A stretch of DNA of 64,000 nt from Marsupella aquatica (Eukaryota > Plantae > Marchantiophyta): NCBI GenBank assembly GCA_973895155.1, contig OZ316895.1:2653659-2717658 (forward strand), in the 5' to 3' direction. Positions 17,940 through 39,617 of this stretch are shown here, one piece after another. The notes beneath the pieces are model-generated. The model did no database searches. It saw only the letters and a list, made by a program, of their open reading frames with translations, and was not told the DNA's origin. The position numbers and the translations under genes are program-made. Position 1 is the stretch's first letter. Every line of letters begins with the position of its first letter.

Positions 17940-18241
17940 CGCTGCTGCTGGCAACCAAATCCCACTGTCTCCCAACAAAATCAAGGTCCCGCGTGAGGAA
18001 AAACGAGAATGTGAGGGCGGCTTAGCGGATATCTAAGCCTCAGCCGCAAGCAGAGCGAGCAAGATCGACATTGAAGTCTACGCAATTCCTTCACATCACT
18101 CTTGCGCTCTACAGCGACATCAGAAAGCTCCCGAGAACGAAAGCAGAAAGCCAAAAAGGAATGCTCACGGATATCGACACACACAGACGCACAATTGTTG
18201 CTCGGTGAGGCCTTCAGCTCCGAAGCTACAGCAGTGTACAA

Positions 18242-18507: not shown

Positions 18508-18651
18508 CATATAGAGGCCGACCTATTTATCCACATTGAAAAAGTTCTAATTGACAGAGTTTTTTTTTATTTCCAAATATGCCAAATATGCCCATGGTTG
18601 AGAAACCAAATCCGTGATGGACTTGAAGTTTGTCTCCCATCATCCCCATGG

Positions 18652-19116
18652 AATCAAGAACTATAATAAAGAGTTGCGCCTTTTTTTCTTTTTTTAAAAG
18701 TGGTCCCCAAATTTGCAATTTCGGTGTCAAAAAAATCTAAAAAAACTTAGTATAGAAGAAATAAATTAACAAATCAAGAACTATAATAAAGAGTTACGTA
18801 CTTTTTTGAAGTGGTTGTCATTTGAATTTGCAGTTTTTGTGTCAAAAAAAATCTAAAGAAACTTAGTATAGAATAAATAAATTCATCAATCAAGAATTAT
18901 AATAAAGAGTTGTGCCCTTTTTTGAAGTGGTCGTTATTTGAATTTGCACTGTGTCAAAAAAAATCTAAAGAAATTTAGTATAGAAGAAATAAATTCACCA
19001 ATCAAGAACTATAATAAAGATTTGCGCCCTTTTTTGAAGTGATCGTCATTTGAATTTGCCATTTTTGTGTCAAAAAAAATCTAAAGAAACTTAGTATAGA
19101 AGAAATAAATTAACCA
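18652..19116. repeat. AT-rich ~115-120-bp tandem repeat, 4 copies
   Basis: Unit AATCAAGAA(C/T)TATAATAAAGA...TTAGTATAGAA.AAATAAATT starts at 18652, 18772, 18888 and 19000. Confidence 0.9.
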
Positions 19117-20059
19117 AACCCTGCAAAAAGGTAACCCTACAAAACAAGTACAAACAATTTTTTTATTCTTCTCTCATATACTTCCCTATAGTAGGCCAAT
19201 GGATTCCCCCCTCTATCCTCCTATTGTCCTTGCAAGTACATACCTTGACATAATGTATTTGTTAGGACAAGCCCAATCCCTTATCTCTCTCAATTCTTCT
19301 CTATACAATATTTACCCATGCCCCAATGTGCAATTGGTTCTGTCCAAGAGCCAATTTGGTTTAGTAGAAGGCATACTAAATTCTTTCTTCTCATTTTACA
19401 AGAAGTTTGCATTTTTTTCACCTTTTCTAAGGCCAAATAGATATCAAATCATTTAGCTAAACGATAACTTTAAACAGTGTAAAACAATTTATAAGTGCAT
19501 TTTGTACTCAAACTAAGAAATATGGTACACTTATCAGTAAGCACATAATCCAATGAGATTGCATTTACTGATAAGTGCACACCCATTTTAGGTAAAAGGA
19601 AAATTTGGACTTATGGACATCAAATTTAGGGCAAGTATTCACATTTTGTGTAATGAGTCACACGGCTGCTCACCTGTGGAGATGCCATTTATTACTAAGT
19701 GAAAATTTTAGGGGGTGTGCACTTATCAAGGAATGAAAAAACAAATTAGTGCAATCGGATAGTGAGAGTGTCACTTATCTAGAGTTTACTTTATTTGCAT
19801 GTGCTATACAATGAACTCAATTTGGACTTGCCCCTCCACTTGGTACTTGCTCCAAGAAAACAAGTACACTAAAAAAAATGGATATGTTTTTGAATGAAAT
19901 GGCAACACATTGAGGGCAATAACTAAAGCTTCATCATGTGCAGTTTCTTCACATTTTAAAAGGTTTACAAGGAATTAAAAAATGAAAAATACAAAGACAA
20001 AATTCATTCTTAACTAATGATAATTTGTGGTTGTTGTTACTCATTTTCTGCGCCCTTTT

Positions 20060-20689
20060 TGTGCAACAGTTTTTTCTTAAGAACATCTTATGCGACACCA
20101 CATCTTTTTTCCTTAACGGTATCTTGGGTGACACAATATTGTTTTTCTTAAATAACAACAGCTTGGGCGACACAACGTCTGCTTTTCTTAATGACATCTT
20201 AGATGACACGACAACTTTTTTCTTAATAACATCTTGGGCGTCATGACATTTTTTTTCTTAACAACATCTTGGGGGACACAACATCTTTTTCTTCATGACA
20301 TCTATTGTGCAACACATGGGTGTTTTTTTTCACGACATCTTTTGTTCTCAATAACTTGGCCGACACTACATCTTTTGTTATCACCGGCATCTTGGCCGAC
20401 ACAACATCTTCCTTCTCAACAACCTCTTGGCCGACTCGACATCTTCCTTCTCAATGACCTCTTGACCGACACGACATCTTTTATTATCACCTGCATCTTG
20501 GCCAACACGACATCTTTTGTTCTCAACAACATCTTGGGCGACATGACATCATTCTTTCTTCTGAACGACCTCTTGGCCGACACAACATCTTTCTTCTCAA
20601 CAACCTCTTGGCCGACACGACCTCTTTTGTTCTCAACGACATCTTGGCCGTCACGACATCTTTTGTGCAACGCACAGGTATTTAGCTAG
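20060..20689 (+). mobile_element. 3' part of a non-autonomous Helitron with an ACATCTT minisatellite
   Basis: Degenerate ~37-40-bp units, then hairpin TGTGC-AAC-GCACA (20664-20676) and CTAG|T (20686-20690), the canonical Helitron 3' terminus. 5' end not located. Confidence 0.65.
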
Positions 20690-21968
20690 TGTGACACATA
20701 AATTAAGCAATTTACACATAATGATAGCAATTTACACATAATGATGAGAAAATTTAGGTAATTAATGTTCTAATTAACTGTTGACTTACATTTCAAGTAC
20801 ATTAGGAGACTCTCCATACTTGAAAGTGACCTGAAAATATGCATTGAATGAAACAAAAGTTTGTATTGAATGAAACAAAAATTTACATCTAGTATTGTAT
20901 TTGAAATTTTTGAGACCAGCAAAGTATTGGAAGCGCTTATTGTAACAAAAGCAACATTCTTTGAAAAATATCATTTCTTGGAGCTCTGCAGTGGGAAATT
21001 TAATTGAAACACTCTTTGTGAAAGAGCAACGCTCTCTGAAAAATAAAATTTCTCAACAATGCCTTCTTAGATTAAAATCTGAGATAGTTTTGTTGCAGCA
21101 AAATAAGTCAAACCCCTCCTTAAAACAAGAGCGACACTCTATGAAAATTACAATTCTGTCTCAAGAGCAATGCTCTATGAAAATCAAGATTTACACCCAG
21201 TTTTCCTAGTGCAAAAATTGTTATATTGGTTCATGGTGATTGTGTTGCTTGTTCCTCCTTTTTGTGGGATTTTTGTGATCTGTTATAAACATAAAAATAT
21301 TCTTGAGGAAAAAATTGAATTAATTTTGCTTTTGCTCATTGAACAAACTACTTGAGGGGCTAGAATAAATTGTAAAGAGCTTAGTCTATATAATTTTATT
21401 ACCAGAAAGGCTAGATAAGGCATACAAATACTAAACATTCTTTACATATTTTATGTTTTTTTATTGAACTCTAAAAAAATGGTTAAAGTGACTAGCTTGA
21501 GGGAAATGCCACGTTTAACCTGACGGGCAAGTTGAGGGCTTGCCAAGCACATACGACCGTCAAATGACGGCCAAAAAATATGCAATTTGACGCATATTCC
21601 GTCTGATTCCCTGGGACCCTGTCCAAACCCTCCCTCGGACCCTGCCCGGACCCTTTTAACATTCAGCCTGAACCCTTCTACCCGGACCAGAACCCTGCTC
21701 CAAGAGACCGGGATGACAGGATGACGGCCTCCAATGTCCAATTTGACAGGCAAGGTCAAACTGGGGAAAAGGATATCAAGAGAATAGAACGAGGCTTGCA
21801 ATCAATGCTCATCTGGTTGGTACATGGTATCTTTGGACAAAAATGGACAGAGGTGGTGCTTTGACAAGATACTTTTGGACAAGTGAACAAAAGTGATGAT
21901 CTGACATGATATTTTTGGACACAAGTGTAACAAATAGTATCCGAGCATATATGTGTGTTTAAATCAAA

Positions 21969-22296
21969 CAGCTTTTTACTAAGTTGACCCCCAAACTAGA
22001 CGTTATTACAAATGTAACCCCCTAACTAATTTAATTACAATACTACCCCCCAAACCGTCACCGGTATTCGCACCTTCGAAAGCACGTCATGGCTACCTTA
22101 ACCTACAGTTGCTCCCCTATGCCCGGCCCTTACCCGCCCTTGTAAGGCCTGCATACACGCCCAACAACTTCCCCCCCCCCCAAGGGATCTCCGCTTCCCG
22201 CAGCACCCGAGTCGGCCCCGATAGCACAGGCTCAATGTTTCCTTCAAGAAAACGTCTAACACCTCAACAAGCACCTGTGCGCCTTTCCTTGAGAGA
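21969..22296 (+). repeat. Left TIR of MULE
   Basis: Reverse complement of 35822-36222. The outer ~90 bp are almost identical; the inner part aligns with indels up to CCTTTCCTTGAGAGA. Confidence 0.92.
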
Positions 22297-22491
22297 AATT
22301 TAAATGCAAATTGATCCTATCACCTGAAATCTTTGCCTTCCATAGGCACTCACAGTATCCTTGATCAAGCTCTGACTTCCAAATTTCCGCAGCAGATTAG
22401 GGTCACGATTGCAAAAGCTGTGCAATCTCATTTTTGCTGGATTTCAGGTCCTTTTTCAGTTCCATTGTGTGTACTAGTACTTGCCTCTACG

Positions 22492-22589
22492 ATGGTTGAA
22501 ACTTGCGATTTGAGGGATGAAGTTGTAAGGTACATTGAAGCTTCATTTGAGCTGCAGAGATCCACCGTTGCAAGGTTTTCAGTTGCGCT
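22492..22589 (+). pseudogene. Probable 5' fragment of the MULE transposase gene, split off by the CACTA insertion
   Basis: ATG 22492 reads MVETCD..RFSVA(L). After removing the CACTA and one GCT the frame continues LRFVAHDAGHCALEQRDLEKVEL from 32263. Confidence 0.45.
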
Positions 22590-23234
22590 CACTACAACAC
22601 TACCGACCCCTTTTGCGAACCCCGTCCCATCGCAACTAACAAAGGACCAAATTATGAAATTCCGGCGTTTGCGAAATGCTACGCATCGCAACCCTTTCGC
22701 ATTCTTTGAAACCCACAGCTTCGCAATTGGACTTTCGCAACCCCTTCGCAACACCTTCGCACACTGCGAAACTTATTTTATCGCACATAAATCACATTTA
22801 TGCGATCTCGACAGACTCTTTATCGGTTTGCGACGCGCTCTGAACTATAACTTACTTGCGAAGCTATTTTCTTGACAATTCCGTTGCCATTCATATGGTA
22901 TCGCATAACTGCGTCAGTCAGGGTGTCACACAATTGCGGAACCAAAAGTATCGCAATGTTCCAATACTCAATGTATGGCAAGTTTGCGATAGTATGGCGT
23001 TCGCATGTGTGTCACAAGGATAGTTTGAGGGCTGGGTTTTGTATATTTGGGTTCATAATTGGGTTGGGGTCTTATTGCTCCACATGAAGATACCAAAGCA
23101 AAACTTTATATATGCCAAAAATCCCTGAATGTACAAAAATTAGGGTTTTCTAAAACCCTATGGGGTATCAAATACCAAGACACTGTCCTTTGACTAATCC
23201 ATATGCCATATGGAGTGAACTACATCTGCATCCT

Positions 23235-25297
23235 CTAGAATGGAGCCCGCCTACTCCTCTTTGCTGGCCTCTTCCCCTTGTCCTTCTTGCTTTGGGCGGG
23301 ACGAGCTGGACGGGAGGGGGGTGGTGGTGGTGGCGGCGGTGGTGGTGGTGCCTGCTGCTCCTCCCCATCTGGCTCATCCTCATCATCGTCATCATCCTCA
23401 TCATCGTCATCATCCTCATCATCATCCTCCTGGTCTCCTGGTGTGCTAGGTGTGGCAGCACTCCCTGCCCCTCTGGACCCACTCGTGGTGGCCCCGGTAG
23501 TGTCCCCATCATCAGCGCCGCTATCCTCCTCACTGCTATCCTCACTCCCCTCCTGCTCCTCCTTATCCTGCTTCCATGCCACAAGGTTAATTCGGGTTTA
23601 GGGTTAATAGGAAAAATGTATAAACCTTATAAATGGAATGGGTGCGGGTTTAGAAAGGGTACTACAAATCACTCACACTAGCCAACTCTGCATCAACCAA
23701 CTCAAAGAGATGTCTGGCCCCATGCTCTGCCCCTATCTCCATCTCCTTTGTTGTTATCTTGCGGCGGTACCTCTTATACTACCACAAAAAAATGAAACAC
23801 CAAAACATAAGGGGCCCGGGTTAGTAACTAAGGGTACTTAAGCAAAAAAGGAATCCTAAAAAGGGTAAAAAGGGTACCCTAACCAGAAAAAAAACCCCAT
23901 TACCCTAACAAACATTTGTCACTCGACACTAAACATTTTTCAAAATGAAACAAGCTTTGCGAAACTCCCACCTTCGCAAATTCAAATATATTTAAGTTTG
24001 CGAAATAGACTGCGAATCGGATTGCTTCGCAATGGCTTCGCAAACCTTACGGGAAAAAGGTTATAATAGAGTTTGCGAAACAATTGCGAGGCAACCCGCT
24101 TCGCAATTGTTTCACAAACTGTGCTTTTAAAAAAATCCGAGAAATGGCTAAGGCACGCAATGTGTCAGGGTGACCTAAAACGAAAGGGGAGGCCATAAGG
24201 GGTAAAGCAGAGGTCTGCGAGGGGCATTGCAGGCAAGCAAACAACAATTGAAGGCAAAGGAAAAGAAGCAGGGGAGGAGGGGAGAGGACTCACGAAGGTT
24301 GCTTTCAGGCCGGGAAGTCCACCTTGCCCCATCTTGTGTGTGGTCTTGGGGCGTTTGCTGACTCGGTCTGCTGCAAGGATGAACTTCTGGGGTGGTGTCC
24401 CCACTTCATCCACGATGTGCTGCAGCTGTGAGACCTTCTCAGCCAATGCCTTGAGGTCTTGGTCTGACTTCCCGGCCTGAAGTGCCTTGGCCTCCTTCTC
24501 CTTCCAGAATTGGAGGTCCTTGGCTGCTTTCAGCTGCACCTCGACCTTATAGAACGCGTTCCACACATCCTCTATGAATTGCACTGGCCTCCTCACGTTC
24601 CTGTACTCCTGCAAGCTTGCTAGGTAGGCCCTCACCTTCCTCCTATCATGGTATCGTGCTTGAGACATTGAATTTGAAATTCTATCTGCAAGCCACTGGT
24701 CATCAATCTCTGCTCCATTTCTGAATGAATCTTTGACCTGAGTCATTACTTTCCTCTGCTCTGCTCTGCTTAGTTTCCCCCACTCAACACCTCGTGCAAA
24801 GCTAGTCCTCACAGCAAGCCTGATAGTGCTCTTTGCCCCAGTGTAGGCCAACTCAGTAGGAATGCCCTCAACCAAGGCAATCAATGGCAGCTTCTTCCTC
24901 TCTTCCTCCTTTTTCCGCTGCGCCTCACGTTGTGCTCGAATCTCATCTCGTTCCTCCCTTCTCCTCTTCTTTTCGAGGGCTGCAGGAGAGAGTACTCCTC
25001 CTTCTTTCGTTTCTTCTCTCTGGCCTTCTCCTCAGCTGCAGCCTTTGCCTCTTTCTCCCTCTGAGCCTGCCCTGCTGCAACCCCGGTTTGCAAAGCTTGC
25101 CCTAGAATTGCACTCAAAGAAGCAATCCCAACTGGTGTACTCAAATCCAAATGGCTCAGCTGTGTGGCATTGAGATGCTCGGCCATCAAATTTGTCCATT
25201 GATTACTCTCCTCATTCCTATTCCCTCCATTGCCATTGCCACTCCCACTCCCACTTGCCCCTGCCCCATCCCCTCCACGCCCTCCACTAGAATCCAT
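23235..25297 (-). CDS. CACTA second gene, TnpA/Ptta-like. Exons 25297-24294, 23778-23677, 23567-23235; one apparent 2-nt frameshift at ~24990
   Basis: Phase-0 GT-AG junctions join the exons. Gly-rich N-terminus, charged coiled coil, THKMGQGG motif reminiscent of Transposase_24, long Asp/Glu tract, poly-Pro, basic C-terminus KKDKGKRPAKRSRR. Removing one CT from the (CT)n at 24985-24994 restores the frame. Family assignment is tentative. Confidence 0.65.
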
Positions 25298-26655
25298 AGC
25301 TATCCAACACCAAGCGCGCAAGCTCTCCTCCTGCCCTCCCTCACTTCAAAAAACGTCGAATGGGCCTCATAACCCAGCGGGAAGGTCCGAATGCCCAGAC
25401 AAAACACATTTGCGATGCAGTCCGCATCGCAATTTGCGAATCAGCCTGCTTCGCAACTAGTATCTCAACTTTCCAAAACCAACCACACGCTTCGCAAAGC
25501 CTTCGCAAAGCTGCAGAGACGCAAAAAAACGCTCTTGGGCTCTGTTTTTCCGAAGCTGTTGCGAAATATTTTGCTTCGCAAATAATGTGACCAAATTCTG
25601 AAGCAGGTTGCGAAGCAGGTCGGTTCTCAATATCGTGGCAATTCCTGGCAAATTTTTTTTTCACATTCTTTCCCTCCTCCTTTTGTTTAGGCCATGTAAG
25701 TTATACTATGCCCTTTTGTGTAATTAAGAAATTCCGCCGTTTCAAATCCCGGCGTTTGTTAGGGTTGGGTCTTGGATGAAGCTGGTTTTTTTAGGGGTTA
25801 AAAGCGAGATTACCAGTCAAACCTTCCGTTTTTTAAGCTATACATGGTGTGGGTGTAGGCTAATTTTGATAAGAGTTGGGTTTTGGTTTAAAATTAATAA
25901 GTGAGGAAAGGGCTTAGGATTAAAGTTGGGTTTGGGTTTAGGGTTTAAGTCTTTAATTTTGGGTTTAAGCAGGGTTTGCATTTATGGTTGTAGGCTTTTA
26001 GGGTTCAAGCAAGGGTTTAGGGTTTAAAACAAAAGAGAGGAAGGGGATTGGGAGTGAGGGTCTAGGTTTTTGTAATAGGTCAGAGGTTTGGGGGTGAGGG
26101 TTTGGAAAAGGCAAAGCAAGGTTAGATGAGATTAATGTTTTAGTTGTTTTACCATGGGTTTTAATGGGTTTTAATGGGTTTTATGGATCTTTTGGGTTTT
26201 AATGGTTTTTCCATGGGTTTTATGCTAACAAAGGAGGAGGAGCTATGACAACTTGCAGGGTGCGGCACTTTTGCATGAATTGATACTAGCTAATGCGTAT
26301 GCATCGTGAGAGCCCGGGCATCTAGAGGTACGGACTAAAATAGATGGGTCTAGTTAGGCTTATTCATGTAATTAAAAATTTTGGTTCCCACTATCTATAA
26401 AGAGGACATGTATGTAAGGTGTTCGCTTTGTGTACTTGCAGCTTTTCGCATACTTCCAGATTCGGTTCATTATTTTAGAGCCACAAGACCTATTGGCACC
26501 GCTGAGCCTGGGTCTCAGAAAGGTATTTTTTAGTGTTCCTTTTGTGTTTGGTTTCATGTCATCATTACTTGAGAACTTACATTTGTCCAGCTTGATATTG
26601 TGATGTTATTTGGTAATAACCCCTAACTTGCAAATTATACATCTTTGTAGGGGCA

Positions 26656-27806
26656 ATGTCTTCATCTTCTGAGATCTCCACCACAGATTCTTCCTCCTCC
26701 GATGAAGATATACCACCTCCTCCTCAACCTCACACGACTGCACCTCCTCCTCGTGGTCCACCCCGTCAGCTTTGCCAATGTGCCAAATGTGTGGGTCAGG
26801 TTTCCCAAAAGTCCTATATATGCACCCAGCATATTGAGAGATATGGACGTTACGGACGTCATACAACAGGGGCTTCCTCATCCCATGTGGTAAGTGTTTA
26901 CGCCTTAGTTTCTACCCTATTTCCACATCGCAATGGTGAAGGTTTTTAATTTCACACCTCTTGTTGTTTGTTTTGGTTTGGGTGGAATAGGTATCTAGTA
27001 GGCCTAGACCTGCGGCATCAGCACCTTATGTCCCATCACAAGGTGTTCTAGATGCTATAGGCAATGCATTCTCACAAGCCTTGGGTCTAGCAACAGCCCC
27101 TTCCAGTCCTAGGGCAGTTGGGGGTGAGCCTGTTGTCCCAAGAGGGAGAAAGCATTCCAAGAGACGGCCCCGAGGGGATATTGATTTGTACAAGGCAGTG
27201 GTTACCGGTAGGTGGGGTGATTGTGAGTTTACTGGCAGATGTGTTCCTATCATCAAGGACTGGGATCCCCAGACTCTTGGTTTGCCACAAGAGCTTTCCT
27301 ATGGTGAGGAGGTAGAGGTTTGGGGAAGACGTTGGGTTATCAAACCTTCCACACTTGGGGATAGACATGGCTATGGAGTTTTTGCTTGTGAAGACATCAT
27401 TGTGGATACCGAGAGTGGTAGTGGTGGACGCAGTCGAGAAGGACCTACGTTGTTTCCTTATGGTGGACCCATCTACAAGAGAAGACATTGGAACATGATC
27501 CTTGCACAACATCCTGAGTGGAAGACTTATGCCTTGGAGTTAGATACTTTTGATGGAAACACTAGGAGGTATAGTGAGCAGCGGGTGATAGATGGGGACC
27601 CCATACAAACTGGGAATATAGCTGGTTTCATAAACAGTACTGTGGGGACTCGCCCCAAGCGTAGGCAAAATTGTGAGTGGGTTTTCATTGAGGGTCCTCC
27701 ACCAGCCCCTTATGGCCAGACATATCATCATGACCATTGTCTGGTTGTAGCTACTAGGACCATTCACTCAGGTGATGAGTTGTTTACTCACTATGTGTGG
27801 GATTAG
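26656..27806 (+). CDS. CACTA-encoded SET-domain protein, ~349 aa. Exons 26656-26889 and 26991-27806
   Basis: Exon 1 has CQCAKC-x11-HIERYG (transposase-associated Zn-like). Donor GTAAGT at 26890 and acceptor AG at 26989-26990 are in frame. SET motifs in order: IKPSTLGDRHGYGVFACEDI, PYGG, IDGD..GNIAGFINS, VVATRTIHSGDELFTHY. No stops. Confidence 0.85.
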
Positions 27807-27949
27807 AAAATGACCATACACATGGCGTTTGGCCACATTTTGTATTTACACCAGTACCGATATTATTTCATGTTTGCACACCCCCATATATTCTTCTACA
27901 TGTTGTAACTATTTTCTTTGTAACTTTCAATTGTTTGCATTGTTTTTAG

Positions 27950-30900
27950 AATGTGCGACCCTCTCAAAATATGTTACCGCGAAGATTGAGAGCAACATAT
28001 CGGGAAATGGGTATGCCGGAAGAAGGACAAGGCTCTGAGTCACATTCCTCATCAAGTGACAGTGGAAGCAACAACCCTGATCGCAATGTACCCAGAACAT
28101 ATGAACAGGTTATTGATGACCAAGATAGAGCCATGGATGATTTTATGGTTGATTGGTTTGGTGTTGACGTCCCTGGTGATGATGCTGAGGTGTCTGCTGA
28201 TCAAGGAGGTCATGTGCCCCCCAATGATCCACGACCAAGACATACCCCCGAGGGACAGCGCCAATGGGAGGAAGCAGAGGAACGTGCCCGAACTCCTATC
28301 TATGAGGGTGCTCGTTTGAGTCGTCTTTCTGCTATCTTGGGGTTGATGAATCTACAGGCCAAACACAAGGCAAGCAATGCCTTGTTATCTGATATGTTTG
28401 CACTTTGCCATGACCTTATGTTACCTTCTGGCAATGTGTTGCCAGGAACTTGGAAGGAGGCCAAGCGTGTTCTCTCATCAATTGGCATGGAATATCACAT
28501 CATTCATGCATGTGTGAATGATTGCATGTTATTTCATGGGGCCGATGAGAAGAAGACAGAGTGTACTGAATGTCATGAGCCACGGTATGACCCCAACATG
28601 ATTACAAAGAAGGTGCCAAGAAAAGCTGTTCGTTGGTTTCCCATCATTCCTCGGTTGTTGCACATGTACAGGTGTTCTGATTTGGCAGAGTTGATGGTAT
28701 GGCATAAGACTCATCGATCAGAGCCTGGTGTTATGCGGTTGCCAATTGACTCTCCTGCAGTCAAACATATTGAGGAAACATGGCCAGACTTTGCACATGA
28801 TCCTCGTCATGTGAGGTTGGGATTGGCATCTGATGGGGTTAGTCCTCATGCCCTTGGAGGCAAGGGAAGACCTACATCAGTTTGGCCTGTGGTTGTGATG
28901 AATTACAACCTTCCACCATGGCTATCCATGAAGAAGGGGTTCCTCTTGCTGTCTTTGATTATTCCAGGTCCAAAAAAGGTGAAGAACTTTGACACTTATT
29001 TGGCACTATTGATTGGAGAACTCCAAAAACTGTGGGGTGGAGTGTGGGCATATGATGGCAGGAAAAATACAGGAGGCATTCCACGTGTATTTAAATTGAG
29101 AGGGGTAGTTTGTTGGACAATGCATGACTATCCTGGTAAGATGACTTTTTGACCATATGCCACCCTTCTTTGATATGCTCTTTAATATACTTGTTTGTCA
29201 TGTGACAACCCTAACATTTAGTCTGGTTTTATTTTTGGTGTAACCAGGGTTTGGCTTTGTCTCTGGATTGCAAACTCAGGGGTACAAAGCTTGCTCCACC
29301 TGTGGTCCACAATTGCAAGATATGGCGATTTGGTCCCCATGGCTTAGGAAGATTGTTTACATTGGGCATACAAAGTTTCTTCCGATGGGGCATGAGATGA
29401 GGTCTGACCCACTTTTATTTTCCTGCTTTGACATGCCCCTTGGTGATATGCGGGAAATTCCGGAACCAACAACTTTTGGGCATTGGAAGTCACTAGCTGA
29501 TAGGGTGGCAGACCCTGATGATCCCCTCACCTTTGATGGTACTGGGTTGACGAGGTGGAGTATACTAGCCAGTTTGCCCTATTGGTCAGAGTTGAAGATC
29601 CGCCATCTTTTAGACCCCATGCACATAGAGGGAAATGTGGGGAAGGCGTTGATAGCTCATTTTTATGGGGAGAAGGACACTAACTTCAGGGAGGCATGTG
29701 AAGAGTTGGAAATGCATCCAGATGTATGGGTACAAGTTGATCCTGCCACAGGTTTGGAACATCATCCTTCTGCTCCTTGGGTGCTTAGTGTTGGCCAAAG
29801 ACGTGAATTCCGAAATCGTATAGGGGAGATGCGGTTTCCTACAGGCTATGGTGCCAATTTGAGGAAAGCTTTTGGGATGGAGGACAATCACAAATGGCCA
29901 CGGTATCTCAAGACACATGACTATCACCACTTATTGCAGCATATATTGCCAGTGGCAATTATAGGGTTGGGGACCAAAGAAGTGCAAGATGCCATTTGGT
30001 CATTGGGTCGTTTGTTGAGATGGATATGCTCAAAGGAGATATATGTGGAAGAGATTCCTGGAATGGAGGTATTGGCTGCTGAGGTGGTTTGCAAGTTGGA
30101 GAAGGCCCTCCCTCCTTCCTTCTTTGATTGTCAAGTTCATTTACTTGTGCATCTTGTGAGGGAGGTTGCCATTGCTGGTCCAGTTCATTGTCGATGGATG
30201 TACTGGCTTGAGCGTTACATGTCAGTCTTGAAGGCTTATGTACGTAACCGTGCACGAGTGGAGGGAAGCATAGCTACAGGATACTTGGCTGCAGAGAGCA
30301 TGTTTTATTGTAGTAACATCTTGGCCACCATTGATCGGACTTTACCACGTACTTGGATGGAGGAGAGGCAAGAGGAGGAGGACCGTTTAACAGGAGCAAC
30401 AAAAACACGCATGCTTACATCAACAGAGTGGACACAGTTGAATACATTCATGTTGAGTAATAGCAATGTCATGGATGAATGGAGGGAGTTTTATGACAAT
30501 GCCAAAAGAATGAGTCAAAGGGCAAGGATTTTTTCTAAGTTGCATGAGTTTATGAAGGAAAAGTTGGTTGAGTTGGATGGCATTTTGGCACAAGGAGGAG
30601 ATGTCTCACAGTTTCCTACTATGACAAATGACATTCGGACCATTGTTCATGGCCCTTTGAGAGTGGTAACATCCAAGACGGCCATGTGGACCCAAGGGAG
30701 ACACTTCAGGTTTCACTAGTTCCTAACCTTGTTTTCCATATTCATGTACTACTACTTAAGATATAGTAATCATTTTACTTAAGATAAGTGTGTTTTTCTC
30801 TTTTGGTATGAAAGGTTCCTCATAACATGATTAGTGTTTTTTGTGTAGTAGTAACAATATATGGGTCTTGTTAATTTCAGGATTTCTTCCCTTGATGAGA

Positions 30901-31359
30901 AGAGGGCTCGTACTTTTGATTGTGGAGTTCAAGGGCAGTTTTGTCAGGACTCCCGGAGTAGCCGACATGACAGGAACATTGTTCGTGATGTTGTGCCACA
31001 CTATGGGAAGATAGAGGAGATTTTGGTGGTCTCATATGACAACCAATCTAAGTTTGAGGAGTATGTCTTCAAGTGCAAGTGGTTCAAAGTGAACCTTGTT
31101 GGTAATAATCGCACTGTACTCCAAGATGAGAGTGGGTTTACACGGTTGAGGACAAGTGCCACTAGTTTTCAAGCATCTCATTGGCAAACGTCAGAGCCAT
31201 TTACTTTCCCATCTCACTTGGAGCAATGTTTCATACCCCTTAGACCCAGAGTGGTCAATTGTCATCACATATGTGCCACGGTCTCGTTCCATTGTTTCAG
31301 ACAAGCCAGACACTATTTTTGTGTCAGATGTAGAGGACATTGAAGGTGACCAAGTGTGA
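27950..31359 (+). CDS. CACTA transposase TnpD (Transposase_21, DUF4218, DUF4216-like). Exons 27950-29135, 29248-30709, 30881-31359, probably preceded by 26656-26889; frameshift near 31230
   Basis: Motifs IHACVNDCMLF, RLGLASDG, WPVVVMNYNLPPW, MHDYPG, LDPMHIEGNV, LKTHDYH, HLLVHL, GPVHCRWMYWLERY, FKCKWF. Intron phases match at 29135/29248 and 30709/30881. The C-terminus DPEWSIV lies in a shifted frame. Confidence 0.93.
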
Positions 31360-32262
31360 GAGACACTTATGGATATTTAAACAAAAAAATCTATATCATG
31401 GATTGTTCATGTTGTTTCTTAATTAATATTTCATACACCATTAGTGTGGTAGGTATTTTCATTTTGGACTCCTACTTTCAAAAGAGGTCATGCATATAAG
31501 TGGCATGGCTTATCCCTCCCTTATCCCTCCTCCCTCTTTGAACCCAAACTCTCCTTCCTCTTCCAAAAACTCCATAGCTTTTTCTCCTCCCTCCCTCTTC
31601 GCTAAAGTCTCTCCTATTTTTAGTAAACCCTCTTTGGACTCCCTTCTTCCTCCGTCCCTCATCCACCTTCCAACTCCCTTCCTCCCTCTTTCACCTTTCA
31701 CCTCCCTCCCTCCTCCTCCCCCATTCAAACTCTAACCTAGATGCACACACAAGTCTAACATAAACGTTTGCGAATTGTTTGCGAAACTAAACAAATCCCA
31801 ACCAAATCGCAATTCTGCCATTTAAACCGTTTCTCAATTATTCCATACTATACGCTTCACTATTTTGCGATATCCAGACCATCCCACCTTTACCATCCAC
31901 ATCGTTTCGCACATTTGCCATACAAACCCATCGCAAATTGTTTGAAGCTAACCTTTTTGCAAACATCCTCCAATACTAATTGTTTCGCATCATTAATGTT
32001 ACCGTGGTTTTGGACTTTCGAAGCGGTCGCGGAGCCTTCGTAATGTGTTTTGTAATCTCTGTAGTTTTGCAAAATATTGTGATACAATAAAGTTCGCAAA
32101 ATGTTTGCGATGCAAATCGCATGGAAGACCAAGTTGCGATACCACAAGTATCGCAAATTGCGATGCGTATTGAGTCATCAACGATTTGAAGCATCTGGAA
32201 TCGCAAACGTGTGTCCGGACGCAAATGAGCTTCGCAAAAGGGCAAAATATGTTGCAGTGGCT

Positions 32263-34589
32263 GCGATTTGTAGCACATGATGCTGGTCACTGTGCACTTG
32301 AGCAGAGGGATTTGGAAAAGGTTGAATTGTAAGGTCATTCCTTTTACAGGGGAAGGAAGGGCTGCATGGGATTTGCTACATGAAGTTCACAGAATTAAGG
32401 AACCAACTCTAAAATTCTCGACATTGGTAAGAGGACTGCGCTTGTCATAACCATTTCGTTCCATGATCTATGCTTATATTTTTCTGAACTGCAATTATCC
32501 ATATAAAGCTTGCAATTCTTATGTCATTGCCCTCTACAGTGCACGATGTTAGGAGAGTTGCAGCATCTAGTCCTAAAAGCAACAAAATTGAACATAGGGA
32601 CAACATTTGAGAGCTGGCCAGACCTGAAAAAATTAGTTGTGGATGAGCGTGTGGGCACAGAGAGACTTCTGGTGACTGATAAGAAAGATGATTATAAGTG
32701 GAAATTGAGATGCAAAGTGAGTACATGCCCTTAGAGGCTGAGAGCTACAAGTCCAGAACAAAGATAATTACCATTACAAAAACCTGTCTGCAACACACTT
32801 GTGAACGTGCTGATCATTACAAACGGCAAATGCACAACAACTCTGATAGGCTTGTAGACAAAATCATGGATATCATTGCCAAGAATAGGCAAACACGACC
32901 ATCTTTCCTGAGAGATTTAGCTCAAGCTTGGGTCCATCCTGACATCAAATACCATACGGCATATGCTGCAAAACATCGGTGCTTGAAGCGACTTGATGGA
33001 GATGAAACAAAATCCTTCCATCTCATACCAGCCCATTGTCATCACATCCTTGAGCGGGATCCCACTGGAGTTGCAAAGTATAGGGCACCTGATGGTCATC
33101 TATACCTGTTATTTGTCTGCCCTTCAACATCCAAGGAAGCATTCCGTCACTATAGGCCCATGGTTGCATTAGATGGAACTCATACTCGATGCATGTACCC
33201 TGGCATTTTGCTGTTGGCCACTTGCTTGGATGCTAATAACACTGTCATCTTACTAGCATATATCTTACTAGCATATGCTTGGGTGCCGTCTGAGAATGAG
33301 GCAAACTGGCTGGTCTTCCTGAATTTATTGAGAGATGCAATTCCAGATTTGTGTCGCCCTGGTGTTGTATTTATTTCTGATCGAGAGAAAGGTCTAACTG
33401 ATGGAGTGCCTGAAGTTTTTCCCCATGGACATCCGACATATTGCACATGGCATCTTGGGGAGAATGTGCAGAAGCACTATGGTAAGGAGATGAGAAAGCT
33501 TTTTGATGCATGATTGCCTTATGCTGTTACACCAACCAAGTATGAGCTGCAACTATAGGCAATTGAGGAGAAGAATAAGCCGGCTGCAGAATACATCTGT
33601 AGGACAGCAGACCCCAAGTACTACTCCAAGGCCTACTTTCCATCTAGAAGGTTTGTGATGCAGTGGAACTCTCTCCTTCAATTATACTTTACAATGTTCT
33701 TGCCTTTCCATGAAGTATTTTGTTCTTCTAACTAATTTTGATGGGTGTAATGGATTTCACATGTTGCCGTACGTGGGGACATGAAACCTCACAACAAGCA
33801 GAGAGTAGTAATAGGGCATTGAAACCTCGACGCCAGGAATTAACATTGAACATGTCCCAGAAAATTTGGGATTATATGATGGTGAAGTATTTTGAGAAGC
33901 AGGAGTTGGCTGAAACCATAACAAGCCCCCAGGTAACATCATGGCCACTTTGAATGAGGTGGAAGAAAAGGCTGCTCATTTTACTGCCCATCCATCCCAT
34001 GCAAATGAGGTCAGAATCACTGATGATAATAACCGACAATTTCTAGTGCAGCTTGAGCCAGAGTGGTCATGCAGTTGTGGTGAATTCTAGGACACTTTGC
34101 TGCCTTGTTTACATGCATGGCGAGCAATTAGTTGGCTGAAAAAATGTCACTATGATTATGTTTCTCCCTACTACAGCACTGAGACATTTAAGAAGACCTA
34201 TGAGTGTCATATGTTGGCTTTGATGAGAGATGGGCTTGTTCCAGACCCTTGGTGTGGTCCTCCATTGAAGGATGCTCCTCCATTGAAGGACCACAGAGCG
34301 ATTAAGGATGCGGTTTGATGAGGAGGAGGTGTGCAGATTACCAAGGAAGTGTGGGGCCTGTGGAGCATGAGGCCATGATCGTCGGAATTTCCCGGAACGT
34401 CAAGCAGCTAAGCAAGTTGTAGAAGGAGGAAGCACTGATGTGGCAATTGGTTCACCTGGAGATGGAGAGGACTGTGATGTGAATGTGGAAGAGGAAGCCA
34501 CTCACACTATCAATGGTTGGGGTTCACAGGAGAGCATGAACATTGGAAGCTTCTCACAATTACTAGCTACAATGGAAACCCAATCGTGA
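32263..34589 (+). pseudogene. MuDRA-type transposase pseudogene (MuDR N-domain, MULE DDE domain, SWIM, Zn knuckle)
   Basis: IGTTFESW..LRCKVSTCP*RLRA; PMVALDGTH..ATCLDANN..FISDREKGL..YCTWHL; SWIM CSCGEF*DTLLPCLHA; knuckle CGACGA*GHDRRN. Stops at 32732, 33511, 34088 and 34368, plus frameshifts. Confidence 0.92.
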
Positions 34590-34994
34590 TGCAATATGTA
34601 GGTTTAGTCCAATGTAGCTTTAGTGGAGTGCAGGTTCGGAGACAAATTTATGGAACTATTTCTATTTCTTACCTTTATCAACAGCCTTGTGTTGTGTTCA
34701 ATGTTCATGAACTGGCCAGAACAGTTCACAAAAATCATTGTTTTTGAGACACCTCAATGAATGCAAGTATCCAGGTTATGTTTTTGATATACAGCTTGAG
34801 TTGGAATGAATGAAAACGTGAGTTGGAATGAAAGAGAAAACATTGTATTGCTTACAAAATTTGCCTTTGAGGGCCATACATCAAAACTGGAAGCAAATGC
34901 TTTGCTGTGGACTCAAAAGACAGAGTACTACCAGGAGCTGATAAATGCAGCAAACTAAGAACTATACTGGACAGAACTATAGCAAGTTTGTTCT

Positions 34995-35579
34995 CTATAG
35001 ATAGCCAGCTGCATGTCCTCGCCTAATGCGCATGAGTCCATCCTATAAGTATGCACATGCCTCCTGCTTGGTCTAAAAACTTTTAAATTTACACCCACTA
35101 AACCCATACACCTGTTGATTGCATGCCTCCCATGTCTCATAGATGCCAGGGGTAAAGGCACGCACAACCGCATAATATCTACGTTTCTGTCCAGGAAGGA
35201 CACCCATTAGGTGGTCAGAAGGTGGTTCTTGCTCAATTGCCATATTCGTAGGTGCTGGTGTTGGTTTTGTGCCATGCTCTGGTTCAAATGTCATGTTCAT
35301 AGATGCTTGACGAGTACCCTGTTCCTCCAAATAATCAAAAACTAATTTTCCTTCATTCTGCATAGCCCTAGTTGTTTGCATCTGCATAAGACAAACAGTA
35401 GCAGCTGGGCTCGGGGCTGGGCTTGTTTGCTCCCGTGTAGTCTTGAGCCAAATCTGCACCTTGTCCTGACCCATCTCCATGGCATTGGACATAAATTGAA
35501 AAATAGATCCAATGACACCCAACATTGCCCAAATACATACTGCAAGTGCCTCAAGAATGGAGCTTGAGGTGTTTGACAT
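34995..35579 (-). pseudogene. MULE second gene with a C-terminal RNase H1 N-terminal hybrid-binding (Cauli_VI-type) domain
   Basis: YYAVVRAFTPGIYETWEACNQQVYGFSGCKFKSF*TKQEACAYL matches the RNase H1 HBD pattern YAV.G..PG.Y..W..C..QV.G.....K.F....EA..F/Y. A premature TAG at 35073-35075 lies inside the domain. Hydrophobic N-terminal segment. Confidence 0.8.
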
Positions 35580-35821
35580 TGTTTGTCTCTTGGGTGGCCC
35601 TTGGTCGGCAGTCACCAGTAGAGGGCACAGTCACTGGTAGAGCTCGATTGATCAGCGCTCGGAAACAGATGGCAAATGACAAGCTCAATGGCTGCAATCG
35701 TAGCCGACACGAGAAGCTACAACTGATTGTAGAGCTGAGAGCTGGCCAGAAATTGCTCAGCGTTGAGCTTGAGCACTTATAGCTACGATGGCCCCTAAAT
35801 CCGTAGCTGCAATGTGAGTTA

Positions 35822-36222
35822 TCTCTCAAGGAAAGGTGCGCAGCTTCAATGTGAGTTTTCCATCTACAAAGGTGCACAGGTGCTTGTTGAGGTGCTCGAC
35901 ATTTTCCTGAAGGAAACGTTGAGCCTGTGCTGCCGGGGCCGACTCGGGCGCTGCGGGAAGCGGAGACCCCTTTTTTTGGGGGAGGGAAGTTGTCGGGCGT
36001 GTATGCATGCCTTACAAGGGTGGGGCAGGGCCGGGCATAGGGGAGCGACCGTCGGTTAAGGTAGCCAACCCGGGTTTGAGCCGGCCAATGACGTGCTTCT
36101 GGAGGCGCGAATACAGGTTATGGCAACCGGCGACGGTTTGGGGGGTAGTATTGTAATTAAATTAGTTAGGGGGTTACATTTGTAATAACCTCTAGTTTGG
36201 GGGTCAACTTAGTAAAAAGCTG
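35822..36222 (-). repeat. Right TIR of MULE
   Basis: Ends ...GGGGTCAACTTAGTAAAAAGCTG, the inverted counterpart of 21969-22296. Confidence 0.92.
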
Positions 36223-36828
36223 TTAAATCAAATCCATCCAAGTTTGGGTTGTCCATGGGGGCTTCATAGACAAGGTATCAATCTATCCTGACTTTAAGTT
36301 CCATGGTTGATGACAAGTTCTCTAATCTAACCAAGGTTACCACGTATCAAAATTGTGGCGTATTTATAAATACAGTTTCTTTTTTCTCTTTACAAAGAGA
36401 CCCATGGTTGATGACAAGTTCTCTAAATAATCTAACAAGACATGGCTGAAAACTTTAGGGATTAGTTATGATATTAGTACATGTCAAGGTGACAGAGCTG
36501 GCGAATGCCATGGGAGTTCCCTGAAACTGGAGAGATTAGTTCCCATAGTAGTAGATGTCAAGGTGACAAAGGGGGCGAATGCCATGGGAGCCTCTTTTCT
36601 CTTTTTTTCTGTTGACGAGCCGAGCCTAAATGCCCATTATTTGAATGAGAGTAGATGATGACAAAAATAAGCATTCATATCATCATTTTGACATCCCATC
36701 CTGCTCTCCATTCACATACATTTGGTGGGACCTTAGAGTTACAGAGGCTTCACCTCGAGAAACAACCCTAGATTCTATTCGCAAAATTAGTAGTAAGATT
36801 GGGTTTTTCGCACTTTAATATATATACA

Positions 36829-38380: not shown

Positions 38381-38912
38381 TAGCGATCCTCCATAAAATT
38401 CATAGGTTGTGTTCAGTCCCGGAGATTAGGCTCACATCAACCAGCGGCACCCCCTTTCGACTGTCAAGCAATGTGAGTTTTGTGTTGACGTCCTGCAAAA
38501 TAGACTTTCAAAGTTGATTTCGTATCCAAGAAAACAGAACTCAGATCATTTCTGGATGAGTGATACAGACCTTCCGCAAGTTTGACATTCAAACTCGATT
38601 TTGAAGCCAATTGAAATAGAGTCCGGGATGCTTTACATATTCTCAAACGAACTTCGGGGGCATTTTTTGGAAGCTACGGCATTATGAGGACTTCTGGGAT
38701 TGTCCAAAAGGTGGAGTTAATGCAGAGGGTATGACGACGAAATGTGGATCACAGTCGCAATCTGCACATTGTTATGATCGCTGTTTGAGATCATAACGTA
38801 CACCTTATCAATTGGGAAGCTCACATGTGAAGGACCGCTGAAATATACGGGTGACACTCGAAACAGAATTCTCATCAGCTACCAGACTTTCTAGTGGTGT
38901 CCACCGAGAGTG

Positions 38913-39617
38913 ATGGCGTCTGCGTATGGGCATATCGCCCGTCCGTCTCCAGCTGGTGCGGGAACGCTGGCTGGCATTCTCCCGCTGGAGAAAATCCTGA
39001 AAGACAACACGGCGGTGCAAGTGTTCCACATCTCGCCTCTGGGAGAACAAGGGGCGATTTTCGCACCGCGGTATCCTAAGTTGGTGAGCCGAATGCACAC
39101 GCTCTTCAATGCGGAGATCGAAGATGGCAACACTTACCCGCAGGAGGAGCTTCTTGACGAGCCCCAATTCCGTGCCTACTTCCTGGCATACGACGCCTTT
39201 GTCGTCGTGCAGGTGCCAACGACAAGGAGTAGTAGCGAGGGAGATCTTCTTCTTGACGATGGGAACGCTGACTGGGAAGCGAACCTGCTTGGCTTCTTCT
39301 ACGTAAAACCCAATTTCCCTGGCCGCTGTTCTCATATTTGCAACGGTGGTTTCTTCACAGCACCAGTAGCTCGCAACCGTGGAGTGGGGCGTTGTATGGC
39401 GGAGGCTTTCCTTAAAGTGGCTCCCGCTCTGGGATACAAGTCGTCTATGTTCAACCTGGTGTTTGTGAACAACACTGCATCTGTGAAATTGTGGCAGTCG
39501 TTAGGATTTCGTGAGATCGGGCGGATTCCAAAGGCTGGTCGGCTCCGATCTTCTCCTGAGCTTGTAGATGCTATCATGTTCTACTATGATTTCACCCAAA
39601 GGCACAGGGCATCATGA
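38913..39617 (+). CDS. GNAT N-acetyltransferase, Mpr1 (L-azetidine-2-carboxylate acetyltransferase)/Spt10-like, single coding exon
   Basis: Motifs EIEDGNTYPQ, GFFYVKPNFPGRCSHICNGGF, acetyl-CoA loop RNRGVG, and APALGYKSSMFNLVFVNNTASVKLWQSLGFREIGRIPKAG, as recalled for the fungal Mpr1/Spt10 family. Confidence 0.88.
   Translation: MASAYGHIARPSPAGAGTLAGILPLEKILKDNTAVQVFHISPLGEQGAIFAPRYPKLVSRMHTLFNAEIEDGNTYPQEELLDEPQFRAYFLAYDAFVVVQVPTTRSSSEGDLLLDDGNADWEANLLGFFYVKPNFPGRCSHICNGGFFTAPVARNRGVGRCMAEAFLKVAPALGYKSSMFNLVFVNNTASVKLWQSLGFREIGRIPKAGRLRSSPELVDAIMFYYDFTQRHRAS

What the first reader, a model, noticed from the sequence alone, without database searches (positions are those of the whole stretch)
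26656..27955. One Zn-binding exon can feed either the SET domain or the transposase
Seen: the phase-0 donor at 26890 is in frame with both acceptors, 26990/26991 (VSSRPR.. SET, stop 27806) and 27949/27950 (NVRPSQ.. TnpD). Exon 1 carries CxCxxC..H..G, resembling the transposase-associated domain normally at the TnpD N-terminus. The SET exon is therefore an alternative terminal exon inside TnpD intron 1. Inference: splicing or polyadenylation choice switches between Zn-SET and Zn-transposase, and the shared module could direct the SET protein to the element's DNA or transpososome. This mirrors SETMAR-type fusions, but within a TE.
Basis: partly seen in the sequence, partly recalled or inferred. 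Interest (0 to 1): 0.78.

Follow-up and report, generated by a model that had tools for sequence, protein, structure and literature searches.

The report
Bryophyte transposon shares exon with methyltransferase
A cut-and-paste jumping gene, likely from a moss or liverwort, carries a conserved gene for a predicted protein-methylating (SET) enzyme inside the first coding intron of its transposase, and one small predicted zinc-binding exon is likely spliced onto either protein, which would let the element switch between moving and marking chromatin.

Summary
In a complete CACTA (En/Spm) element (22590-32259), the phase-0 donor at 26890 is in frame with acceptor 26990 (SET, stop 27806) and acceptor 27949 (TnpD). 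A relative with 68% SET identity keeps the 234-nt exon, the donor, both acceptors and the stop. dN/dS is 0.09 for the Cys/His part and 0.23 for the SET core. SET has no usable start of its own, and Sphagnum and Calypogeia gene models join exon 1 to it. Exon 1 has the CxCxxC-x13-H-x4-G spacing of the TnpD N-terminal domain PF13963 (31 of 43), which TnpD here otherwise lacks, but Pfam itself does not hit it. So exon 1-SET is well supported and exon 1-TnpD is likely. Neither junction is shown in RNA, and no exon 1-TnpD gene model was found. The SETMAR comparison fails, because SET and transposase end up in different proteins. SET cargo is known in other transposons and alternative splicing in En/Spm; the shared coding exon was not found in print. 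This scan noted the same layout earlier in peat-moss genomes.

The parts
22590..32259 (.). Complete CACTA (En/Spm) element, 9670 bp; 10-bp terminal inverted repeats with one mismatch; 3-bp target duplication GCT at 22587-22589 and 32260-32262; TCGCAA subterminal motif 42 times inside vs 20 in the other 54 kb of the window
   Evidence: joint 22575/32260 in run X3 (table 5c)
26259..26327 (+). Likely upstream 5' exon (non-coding or carrying a short upstream ORF); its 3' end and donor are conserved in L001
   Evidence: start inferred from a candidate acceptor
26442..26522 (+). Likely non-coding 5' exon without ATG; sequence and donor at 26523 conserved in L001 (80% over 56 nt); 5' edge uncertain
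   Evidence: same block kept in a divergent family (table 5)
26656..26889 (+). Shared coding exon 1 (78 codons, phase-0 end): Ser/Pro-rich start, then the Cys/His module
   Evidence: homologous N-termini in gene models
26773..26847 (+). CxCxxC-x13-H-x4-G motif, predicted zinc-binding; likely a divergent transposase-associated domain (PF13963)
   Evidence: dN/dS 0.09; no direct Pfam hit
26890..26990 (+). Short intron to acceptor 1 (101 nt, GT..AG, 43% T)
26991..27806 (+). SET exon, 271 codons plus TAG; Pfam SET at about 27369-27794; first in-frame Met only at codon 169
27807..27949 (+). T-rich spacer: likely 3' UTR of SET and 3' end of the long TnpD intron; acceptor 2 at 27948-27949; three TGTA motifs, no AATAAA
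27950..29135 (+). TnpD exon 2 (Transposase_21 first part); Met at codons 8, 20 and 22; no CxCxxC in its first 180 residues
29248..30709 (+). TnpD exon 3 (rest of Transposase_21, DUF4218), after a 112-nt intron, in phase
30881..31359 (+). TnpD last exon (weak DUF4216); this copy is 8 nt shorter than other copies near 31231, which shifts the frame of about the last 40 codons
   Evidence: (table 4)
23168..25345 (-). Divergently oriented partner ORFs, the likely ORF2/TnpA-type gene; the 287-aa ORF has no Pfam hit above cut-off
   Evidence: role inferred from position

Best explanation
This CACTA transposon carries a conserved SET-domain exon between its Cys/His-bearing first coding exon and the body of TnpD, and one donor (26890) is likely spliced to either of two in-frame acceptors, which would give a 349-residue Zn-module-SET protein or the full-length transposase. 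Shown: the sequence anatomy, the SET fold, purifying selection, and conservation of order and splice sites. Inferred history: an ancestral TnpD had the Cys/His module and the catalytic body in one frame, as SET-less relatives still do. A SET coding block with its own acceptor and stop came in just behind the module and borrowed its promoter, start codon and module. Inferred working: the near acceptor makes SET and no transposase, the far acceptor makes transposase, so acceptor choice sets their ratio. Least certain step: the SET protein likely methylates a lysine in chromatin at the element's copies to ease silencing, brought there by the shared module (about 0.3). Its substrate could not be assigned.
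For: Exon 1-SET: the first Met of the SET frame is at codon 169, past the first two SET motifs. Gene models from Calypogeia and five Sphagnum species join exon 1 to SET at the same place, including 10 of the 15 listed members of one 360-member cluster, at 343-348 aa. Exon 1-TnpD: PF13963 passes its cut-off in 47 of 73 TnpD relatives scanned (chosen from 150 for having N-terminal sequence). In 43 of them (4 near-duplicates left out) the commonest spacing is C-x13-H-x4-G, 31 of 43, the same as exon 1. A profile from these 43 domains ranks the exon 1 frame first of 1674 six-frame ORFs of the window (E 0.038) and above 1000 of 1000 full shuffles; profile-profile probability is 92% over 32 columns. 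TnpD exon 2 has no such motif. With exon 1 spliced on, the distance from the motif to a conserved TnpD anchor is 224 aa, against 82-228 in 44 relatives, and 220 and 228 in two SET-less ones (P0084, P0108) that share Gly-Arg after the His. Acceptor 2 is kept in L001. Three Riccia models place SET pieces directly before TnpD, one with the motif in front. dN/dS is 0.09 (motif part) and 0.23 (SET core) vs L001. The model matches SET domains: Foldseek E 4.5e-5, VIA Z 9.1, rmsd 2.8, 114 aligned.
Against: Neither junction was seen in a transcript. None of 8 proteins found with exon 1 as query continues into TnpD: 5 go to SET, 1 to a cut SET, 2 run into the intron. That search was insensitive and missed three known carriers. 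Pfam does not call PF13963 on exon 1. The likeness rests on five motif residues: 164 of 1000 shuffles that keep them score as well, and with the core profile an unrelated frame scored 8.8 vs 8.4 bits. TnpD exon 2 has Met at codons 8, 20 and 22, and a Met pair near 20-22 recurs in three relatives. The 224-aa distance is near the top of the range. The SET protein stops 3 residues after the last motif Tyr in 38 of 61 homologs and has Ser for the usual His in 49 of 61 (many are close copies; the canonical motif is recalled), so catalysis is uncertain.
Confidence: 0.72

Rival explanations
1. Exon 1 now serves SET only. TnpD is made without the Cys/His module from its own ATG (27971 or 28007/28013), either from a promoter inside the SET gene or by splicing from the non-coding exon ending at 26522 to acceptor 2.
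For: In-frame Met at codons 8, 20 and 22; Met pair near 20-22 in P0074, P0215 and P0221; 0 of 8 exon 1 hits continue into TnpD; a conserved upstream donor at 26523 exists.
Against: It would leave TnpD without a domain that 47 of 73 scanned relatives carry. The first Met differs between families (codon 8 here, codon 2 in L001) while the acceptor is kept. Acceptor 2 is in phase with exon 1, which this reading does not need. The motif-to-core distance fits a spliced exon 1.
Confidence: 0.16
2. A SETMAR-like single chain: a donor inside or at the end of the SET exon joins module, SET and TnpD into one protein.
For: Four gene models join SET pieces to TnpD: P0028 (Sphagnum) and P0066, P0068, P0070 (Riccia); P0070 keeps the SET end.
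Against: The SET stop is at the same place in L001 and in most homologs. Of 11 donor-like sites (6 or more of 9 matches) in 26995-27949, only 27585 is in phase 0, and it would remove the last two SET motifs. The four models join at different points, and three lose part of SET, as expected of prediction artefacts on decayed copies. A longer-protein search with SET found nothing (weak).
Confidence: 0.06
3. The splicing layout is as in the best explanation, but the SET product is not a histone writer. It is a catalytically weak decoy or reader, or it methylates a non-histone target such as TnpD itself, and its exon also works as a brake that diverts transcripts away from transposase. This can be true together with the best explanation's anatomy.
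For: No post-SET region and His-to-Ser in the cofactor motif. The structure matches are tied across EZH2, SETD8, MLL/Set1, ASH1L and G9a at 16-24% identity, so no substrate class stands out. The near acceptor is close to the donor and would likely be the default.
Against: The GxG, YxG, Asn and last-motif Tyr positions are invariant or nearly so in 21 aligned homologs down to 42% identity. The Tyr lines up by extension with the catalytic Tyr of SETD8 and EZH2 (catalytic role recalled). dN/dS 0.23 excludes a mere poison exon.
Confidence: 0.4
4. The SET gene is a host gene or fragment captured by chance (Pack-CACTA type), and the frame match is coincidence.
For: CACTA elements capture gene pieces and extra domains (PMC8978399, passages); the chance of a double phase match in one copy is 1 in 9.
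Against: The same order occurs in Sphagnum, Riccia and L001, and exon 1-SET in Calypogeia. Selection is purifying. SET is present in divergent families in all 4 runs laid, and none of 7 joints removes it cleanly. No ordinary host SET was among 42 hits.
Confidence: 0.03

Closest known systems
Maize En/Spm and Arabidopsis EN/SPM3, EN/SPM7 (CACTA): TnpA and TnpD from one gene by alternative splicing (PMC13547354, passages)
   Same: CACTA ends, 3-bp target duplication, TnpD domain set, and two proteins from one likely transcription unit.
   Different: The second product here is a SET protein, not TnpA. It likely shares a coding exon with TnpD. The TnpA-like partner lies separately on the other strand.
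Angiosperm CACTA ORF1 with TAD (PF13963)-Transposase_21-DUF4218-DUF4216 (PMC8978399, passages)
   Same: Same domain order if exon 1 is the TAD; same Cys/His spacing.
   Different: Exon 1 is too diverged for a Pfam hit, lacks the C-terminal part of PF13963, and is separated from the rest by a SET exon. The extra domains reported in the passages read (Peptidase_C48, Transposase_24) lie in ORF2.
SET-carrying transposons: red-algal Plavaka PAG2 (En/Spm superfamily), HarbingerS and oomycete MuDR, some Helitrons (10.1101/2025.02.11.637652, passages; PMC12730594, passages)
   Same: A DNA transposon keeps a SET domain as cargo, with a proposed chromatin role.
   Different: Those are described as separate accessory genes, and PAG2 is fused to an adenine methylase. 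No sharing of a transposase exon is described in the passages read. No relationship of the SET sequences was tested.
One CACTA cluster with a SET accessory protein in a plant-wide table (PMC12973397, Table S6 row, 1 of 775 clusters)
   Same: CACTA plus SET in a plant; six Sphagnum genomes were in that data set, so it may be this family.
   Different: A single table row without species, gene structure or comment in the passages read.
SETMAR/Metnase (PMC4593633, abstract start in a search listing)
   Same: A SET domain and a transposase in one locus.
   Different: SETMAR is one chimeric chain; that it is a domesticated primate host gene with a mariner transposase is recalled. Here SET and transposase are alternative products inside a mobile element.
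VANC and TnpA anti-silencing proteins (10.64898/2026.08.24.746577, passages)
   Same: An element-encoded factor that may act on the element's own epigenetic state.
   Different: Those are described as sequence-specific regulators with shown hypomethylation. Here the factor is a predicted enzyme and no activity is shown.

Membership tests
CACTA (En/Spm) transposon | Terminal inverted repeats starting CACTA and a 3-bp target duplication | tested here: met
   5' end CACTA, 3' end reads CACTG (one mismatch), GCT duplicated
CACTA (En/Spm) transposon | TnpD with Transposase_21, DUF4218, DUF4216 and acidic triad motifs | tested here: met
   First two above cut-off, DUF4216 below; SDG, HDY and LER motifs present (their assignment to the triad is recalled); last exon frameshifted in this copy
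CACTA (En/Spm) transposon | Subterminal repeats and a second gene (ORF2/TnpA) | tested here: inconclusive
   Repeats present; the minus-strand ORF tested has no Pfam hit above cut-off
PF13963 transposase-associated domain (exon 1) | Pfam score at or above 27.7 bits | tested here: not met
   No hit for exon 1 or its homologs at E up to 10; 11.8 bits on my own profile
PF13963 transposase-associated domain (exon 1) | CxCxxC-x13-H-x4-G core at the N-terminus, ahead of Transposase_21 | tested here: met
   Same spacing as 31 of 43 Pfam-positive relatives; hhalign 92%; distance within range. Works like a divergent member; not filed as a Pfam member
SET domain | PF00856 above cut-off and SET fold | tested here: met
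   27.6 vs 22.4 bits; 59 Foldseek matches at E up to 0.001, all listed rows SET proteins; model pLDDT only 63
Active SET lysine methyltransferase | GxG, YxG, Asn-His and final Tyr motifs plus a post-SET lid (motif set recalled) | tested here: inconclusive
   GxG, YxG, Asn and Tyr conserved; His is Ser in 49 of 61 and the chain ends 3 residues after Tyr in 38 of 61
Active SET lysine methyltransferase | Methyl transfer to a defined lysine | not testable with these tools
   Needs an assay; structure hits are tied across subfamilies
En/Spm-type alternatively spliced unit | Both junctions present in mRNA | not testable with these tools
   No RNA holder listed; conserved in-frame sites only
SETMAR-type fusion | SET and transposase in one polypeptide | tested here: not met
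   Conserved stop, offset frames, no conserved donor that keeps SET whole

The most novel reading that the evidence does not exclude
A lineage of CACTA elements shared by mosses and liverworts encodes its own histone lysine methyltransferase and aims it with the transposase's own zinc module. One splice choice then flips the element between a chromatin-writing, anti-silencing state and a jumping state, and the missing post-SET lid is supplied by a partner at the element.
Probability: 0.25. Interest if true: 0.85.

Novelty: new variant of a known kind. Interest (0 to 1): 0.62.

Why it matters
In the papers read, plant transposon anti-silencing factors are sequence-specific regulators (VANC, TnpA), and SET cargo in oomycetes and red algae has only a proposed role. 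This family offers a compact, multi-copy, apparently young element in land plants with a SET under purifying selection in both mosses and liverworts. A transposon-encoded histone writer can therefore be tested with one RT-PCR and one enzyme assay. If the shared exon is real, it also gives a handle on what the unexplained transposase-associated domain does, since that module would be grafted on two unrelated proteins. It also means that many Sphagnum 'SET domain proteins' in databases are transposon genes, not host chromatin genes.

Tried and rejected
RNA: no RNA holder listed among 4 runs. The four runs behave as DNA contigs and show no clean intron joints; this is no evidence either way. The joint 26895-27022 with GT..AG ends is a divergent DNA copy with unknown letters between, not a splice. 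No whole genome is held for this window, so copies could not be compared one by one. Locus scans: SET gave 1 locus in metagenomes and none in viral or prokaryote contigs; TnpD gave no locus. Longer SET proteins: none (weak, and Riccia chimeric models turned up later). PDB by sequence: none. The first structure model was poor (pLDDT 47.5; no match at E up to 0.001); the second was used. The protein atlas gave no usable hit for exon 1, and the SET domain was not assessed there. Poly(A) signal: no AATAAA-like hexamer in the window spacer; the TGTA motifs are ambiguous with branch-point sequence. No complex prediction was sent. Literature searches found no description of a bryophyte CACTA with SET or of a shared exon. 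PMC11982613 passages held nothing relevant. PMC4158355 passages only suggest alternative splicing of CACTA transposases. Repbase Reports were seen only as references, and bioRxiv supplements (Bostrychia Table 6) could not be seen; both may bear on novelty.
Full report
Setting. The finding lies in a complete CACTA element at 22590-32259. It has a CACTA 5' end, a 3' end with one mismatch, a duplicated GCT and 42 TCGCAA motifs clustered near the ends and the partner gene. It has inserted into a long-TIR Mutator-like element. The host is inferred to be a bryophyte, since every named SET homolog is from Calypogeia, Sphagnum or Riccia. Contigs of run X1 match 25830-27056 with 5 differences in 1226 nt, at much higher depth than the flanking Mutator element. 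This suggests a young multi-copy family, though depth is not a copy number.

Observation. Exon 1 has 78 codons and ends in phase 0 at a GTAAGT donor. Acceptors 26990 and 27949 are the most T-rich AGs of their regions and open the SET and TnpD frames exactly. SET passes the Pfam cut-off; TnpD has Transposase_21, DUF4218 and a weak DUF4216. The other TnpD introns (29136-29247, 30710-30880) keep the frame.

Conservation. L001, with 68% SET identity, keeps a 234-nt exon 1, the donor, acceptor 1, the stop and acceptor 2 with the same first codon, while intron and spacer differ in length. It ends 6 nt into TnpD. dN/dS is 0.09 over 34 codons of the Cys/His part, 0.23 over 167 SET core codons and 0.67 over the linker (one pair, Nei-Gojobori). 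A second family in runs X1 and X4 keeps the SET end at 27806 followed by spacer and TnpD. None of the 7 joints listed removes SET cleanly; one deletion cuts from mid-SET into TnpD. Three Riccia models place SET pieces just before a TnpD of about 50% identity, one with the Cys/His motif in front.

Exon 1 to SET. The first Met in the SET frame is codon 169, so this copy needs exon 1. Sphagnum copies do have a Met early in the SET exon, and some models start there. Models of Calypogeia and five Sphagnum species join exon 1 to SET at the same point. These are predictions and their RNA support was not seen. I put this junction at about 0.93.

Exon 1 to TnpD. Published CACTA ORF1s begin with the transposase-associated domain (PMC8978399, passages). 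Of 150 TnpD relatives I scanned 73 with N-terminal sequence; 47 pass PF13963. In 43 of these (4 near-duplicates dropped), 31 have the spacing of exon 1. A profile of them ranks the exon 1 frame first of 1674 window ORFs (E 0.038), and hhalign gives 92%. Against this: Pfam does not hit exon 1, 164 of 1000 motif-keeping shuffles score as well, and with the core profile a chance frame scored slightly higher. The likeness is thus the motif and its spacing. Position supports it: TnpD exon 2 has no such motif, and splicing exon 1 on gives 224 aa to a fixed anchor, within 82-228 of 44 relatives and next to the two most exon 1-like SET-less ones at 220 and 228. No exon 1-TnpD gene model was among 8 hits of an insensitive search, and TnpD has early Met codons. 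I put this junction at about 0.78.

No fusion. The frames are offset and the stop is conserved. The only phase-0 donor-like site among 11 would cut SET before its last two motifs. Four database models that join SET to TnpD do so at different points and are best read as artefacts, though P0070 keeps the SET end and cannot be excluded for Riccia.

The SET protein. A model of pLDDT 63 matches SET domains with EZH2, SETD8, MLL/Set1 and ASH1L tied, so no substrate can be named. GxG, YxG, the Asn and the final Tyr are conserved in 21 aligned homologs. The His after the Asn is mostly Ser, and the chain ends 3 residues after the Tyr in 38 of 61 homologs, leaving no post-SET region (canonical motifs recalled). 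It may need a partner, or may not be catalytic.

Mechanism. Most likely one promoter, two short 5' exons (conserved), then exon 1, then a choice of acceptor. The near acceptor gives module-SET, ending in the spacer or running on as a long 3' tail; the far one gives module-TnpD. The SET block likely arrived behind the module of an ancestral single-frame TnpD such as P0084. That the shared module targets SET to the element is untested inference.

What is known. Alternative splicing of TnpA/TnpD is established (PMC13547354, passages). SET cargo is reported for HarbingerS, oomycete MuDR, Helitrons and red-algal Plavaka of the En/Spm superfamily (PMC12730594 and 10.1101/2025.02.11.637652, passages). 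One of 775 plant CACTA clusters has a SET accessory protein in a supplementary table (PMC12973397). Eight searches found no account of this bryophyte family or of a shared exon; Repbase entries could not be read. Three earlier notes of this scan describe the same layout in peat moss. They agree with my prior reading and are not counted as evidence.

Verdict. The feature is real and conserved, and it is a new variant of a known kind. The best explanation stands at 0.72 and interest at 0.62.

Noticed in passing
window 21968-36223: The CACTA element sits inside a Mutator-like element with TIRs of about 330 bp, an 8-9-bp target duplication and a decayed MULE transposase at 32698-33513; empty-site joints occur in three runs.
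   Followed up: partly
window 26293-26325; L001 272-304: A conserved upstream exon holds a 10-codon upstream ORF ending at the same place in both copies; another frame of the same stretch also looks conserved but has a stop in the window. It may be a translational control of both isoforms.
   Followed up: partly
window 27792-27806: The SET family ends three residues after the final Tyr, with an invariant Trp two residues later and no post-SET region; the position matching SETD8 residue 334 by extension of the alignment is Thr.
   Followed up: partly
window 23168-25345 (minus strand): A head-to-head partner gene with an acidic/Pro-rich last part and no Pfam family for its main ORF; probable TnpA analogue binding the TCGCAA palindromic repeats.
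   Followed up: no
window 31231: This copy lacks 8 nt present in other copies, shifting the last 40 or so TnpD codons, so it may depend on siblings.
   Followed up: yes
window 20070-20670 and 18650-19120: Degenerate tandem arrays of about 36-nt and about 116-nt units upstream of the Mutator element.
   Followed up: no
window 38895-39617 and 17001-18032: A GNAT acetyltransferase ORF without an apparent intron and an ORF resembling the orotate phosphoribosyltransferase part of UMP synthase (label recalled, not tested) flank the nested elements.
   Followed up: no
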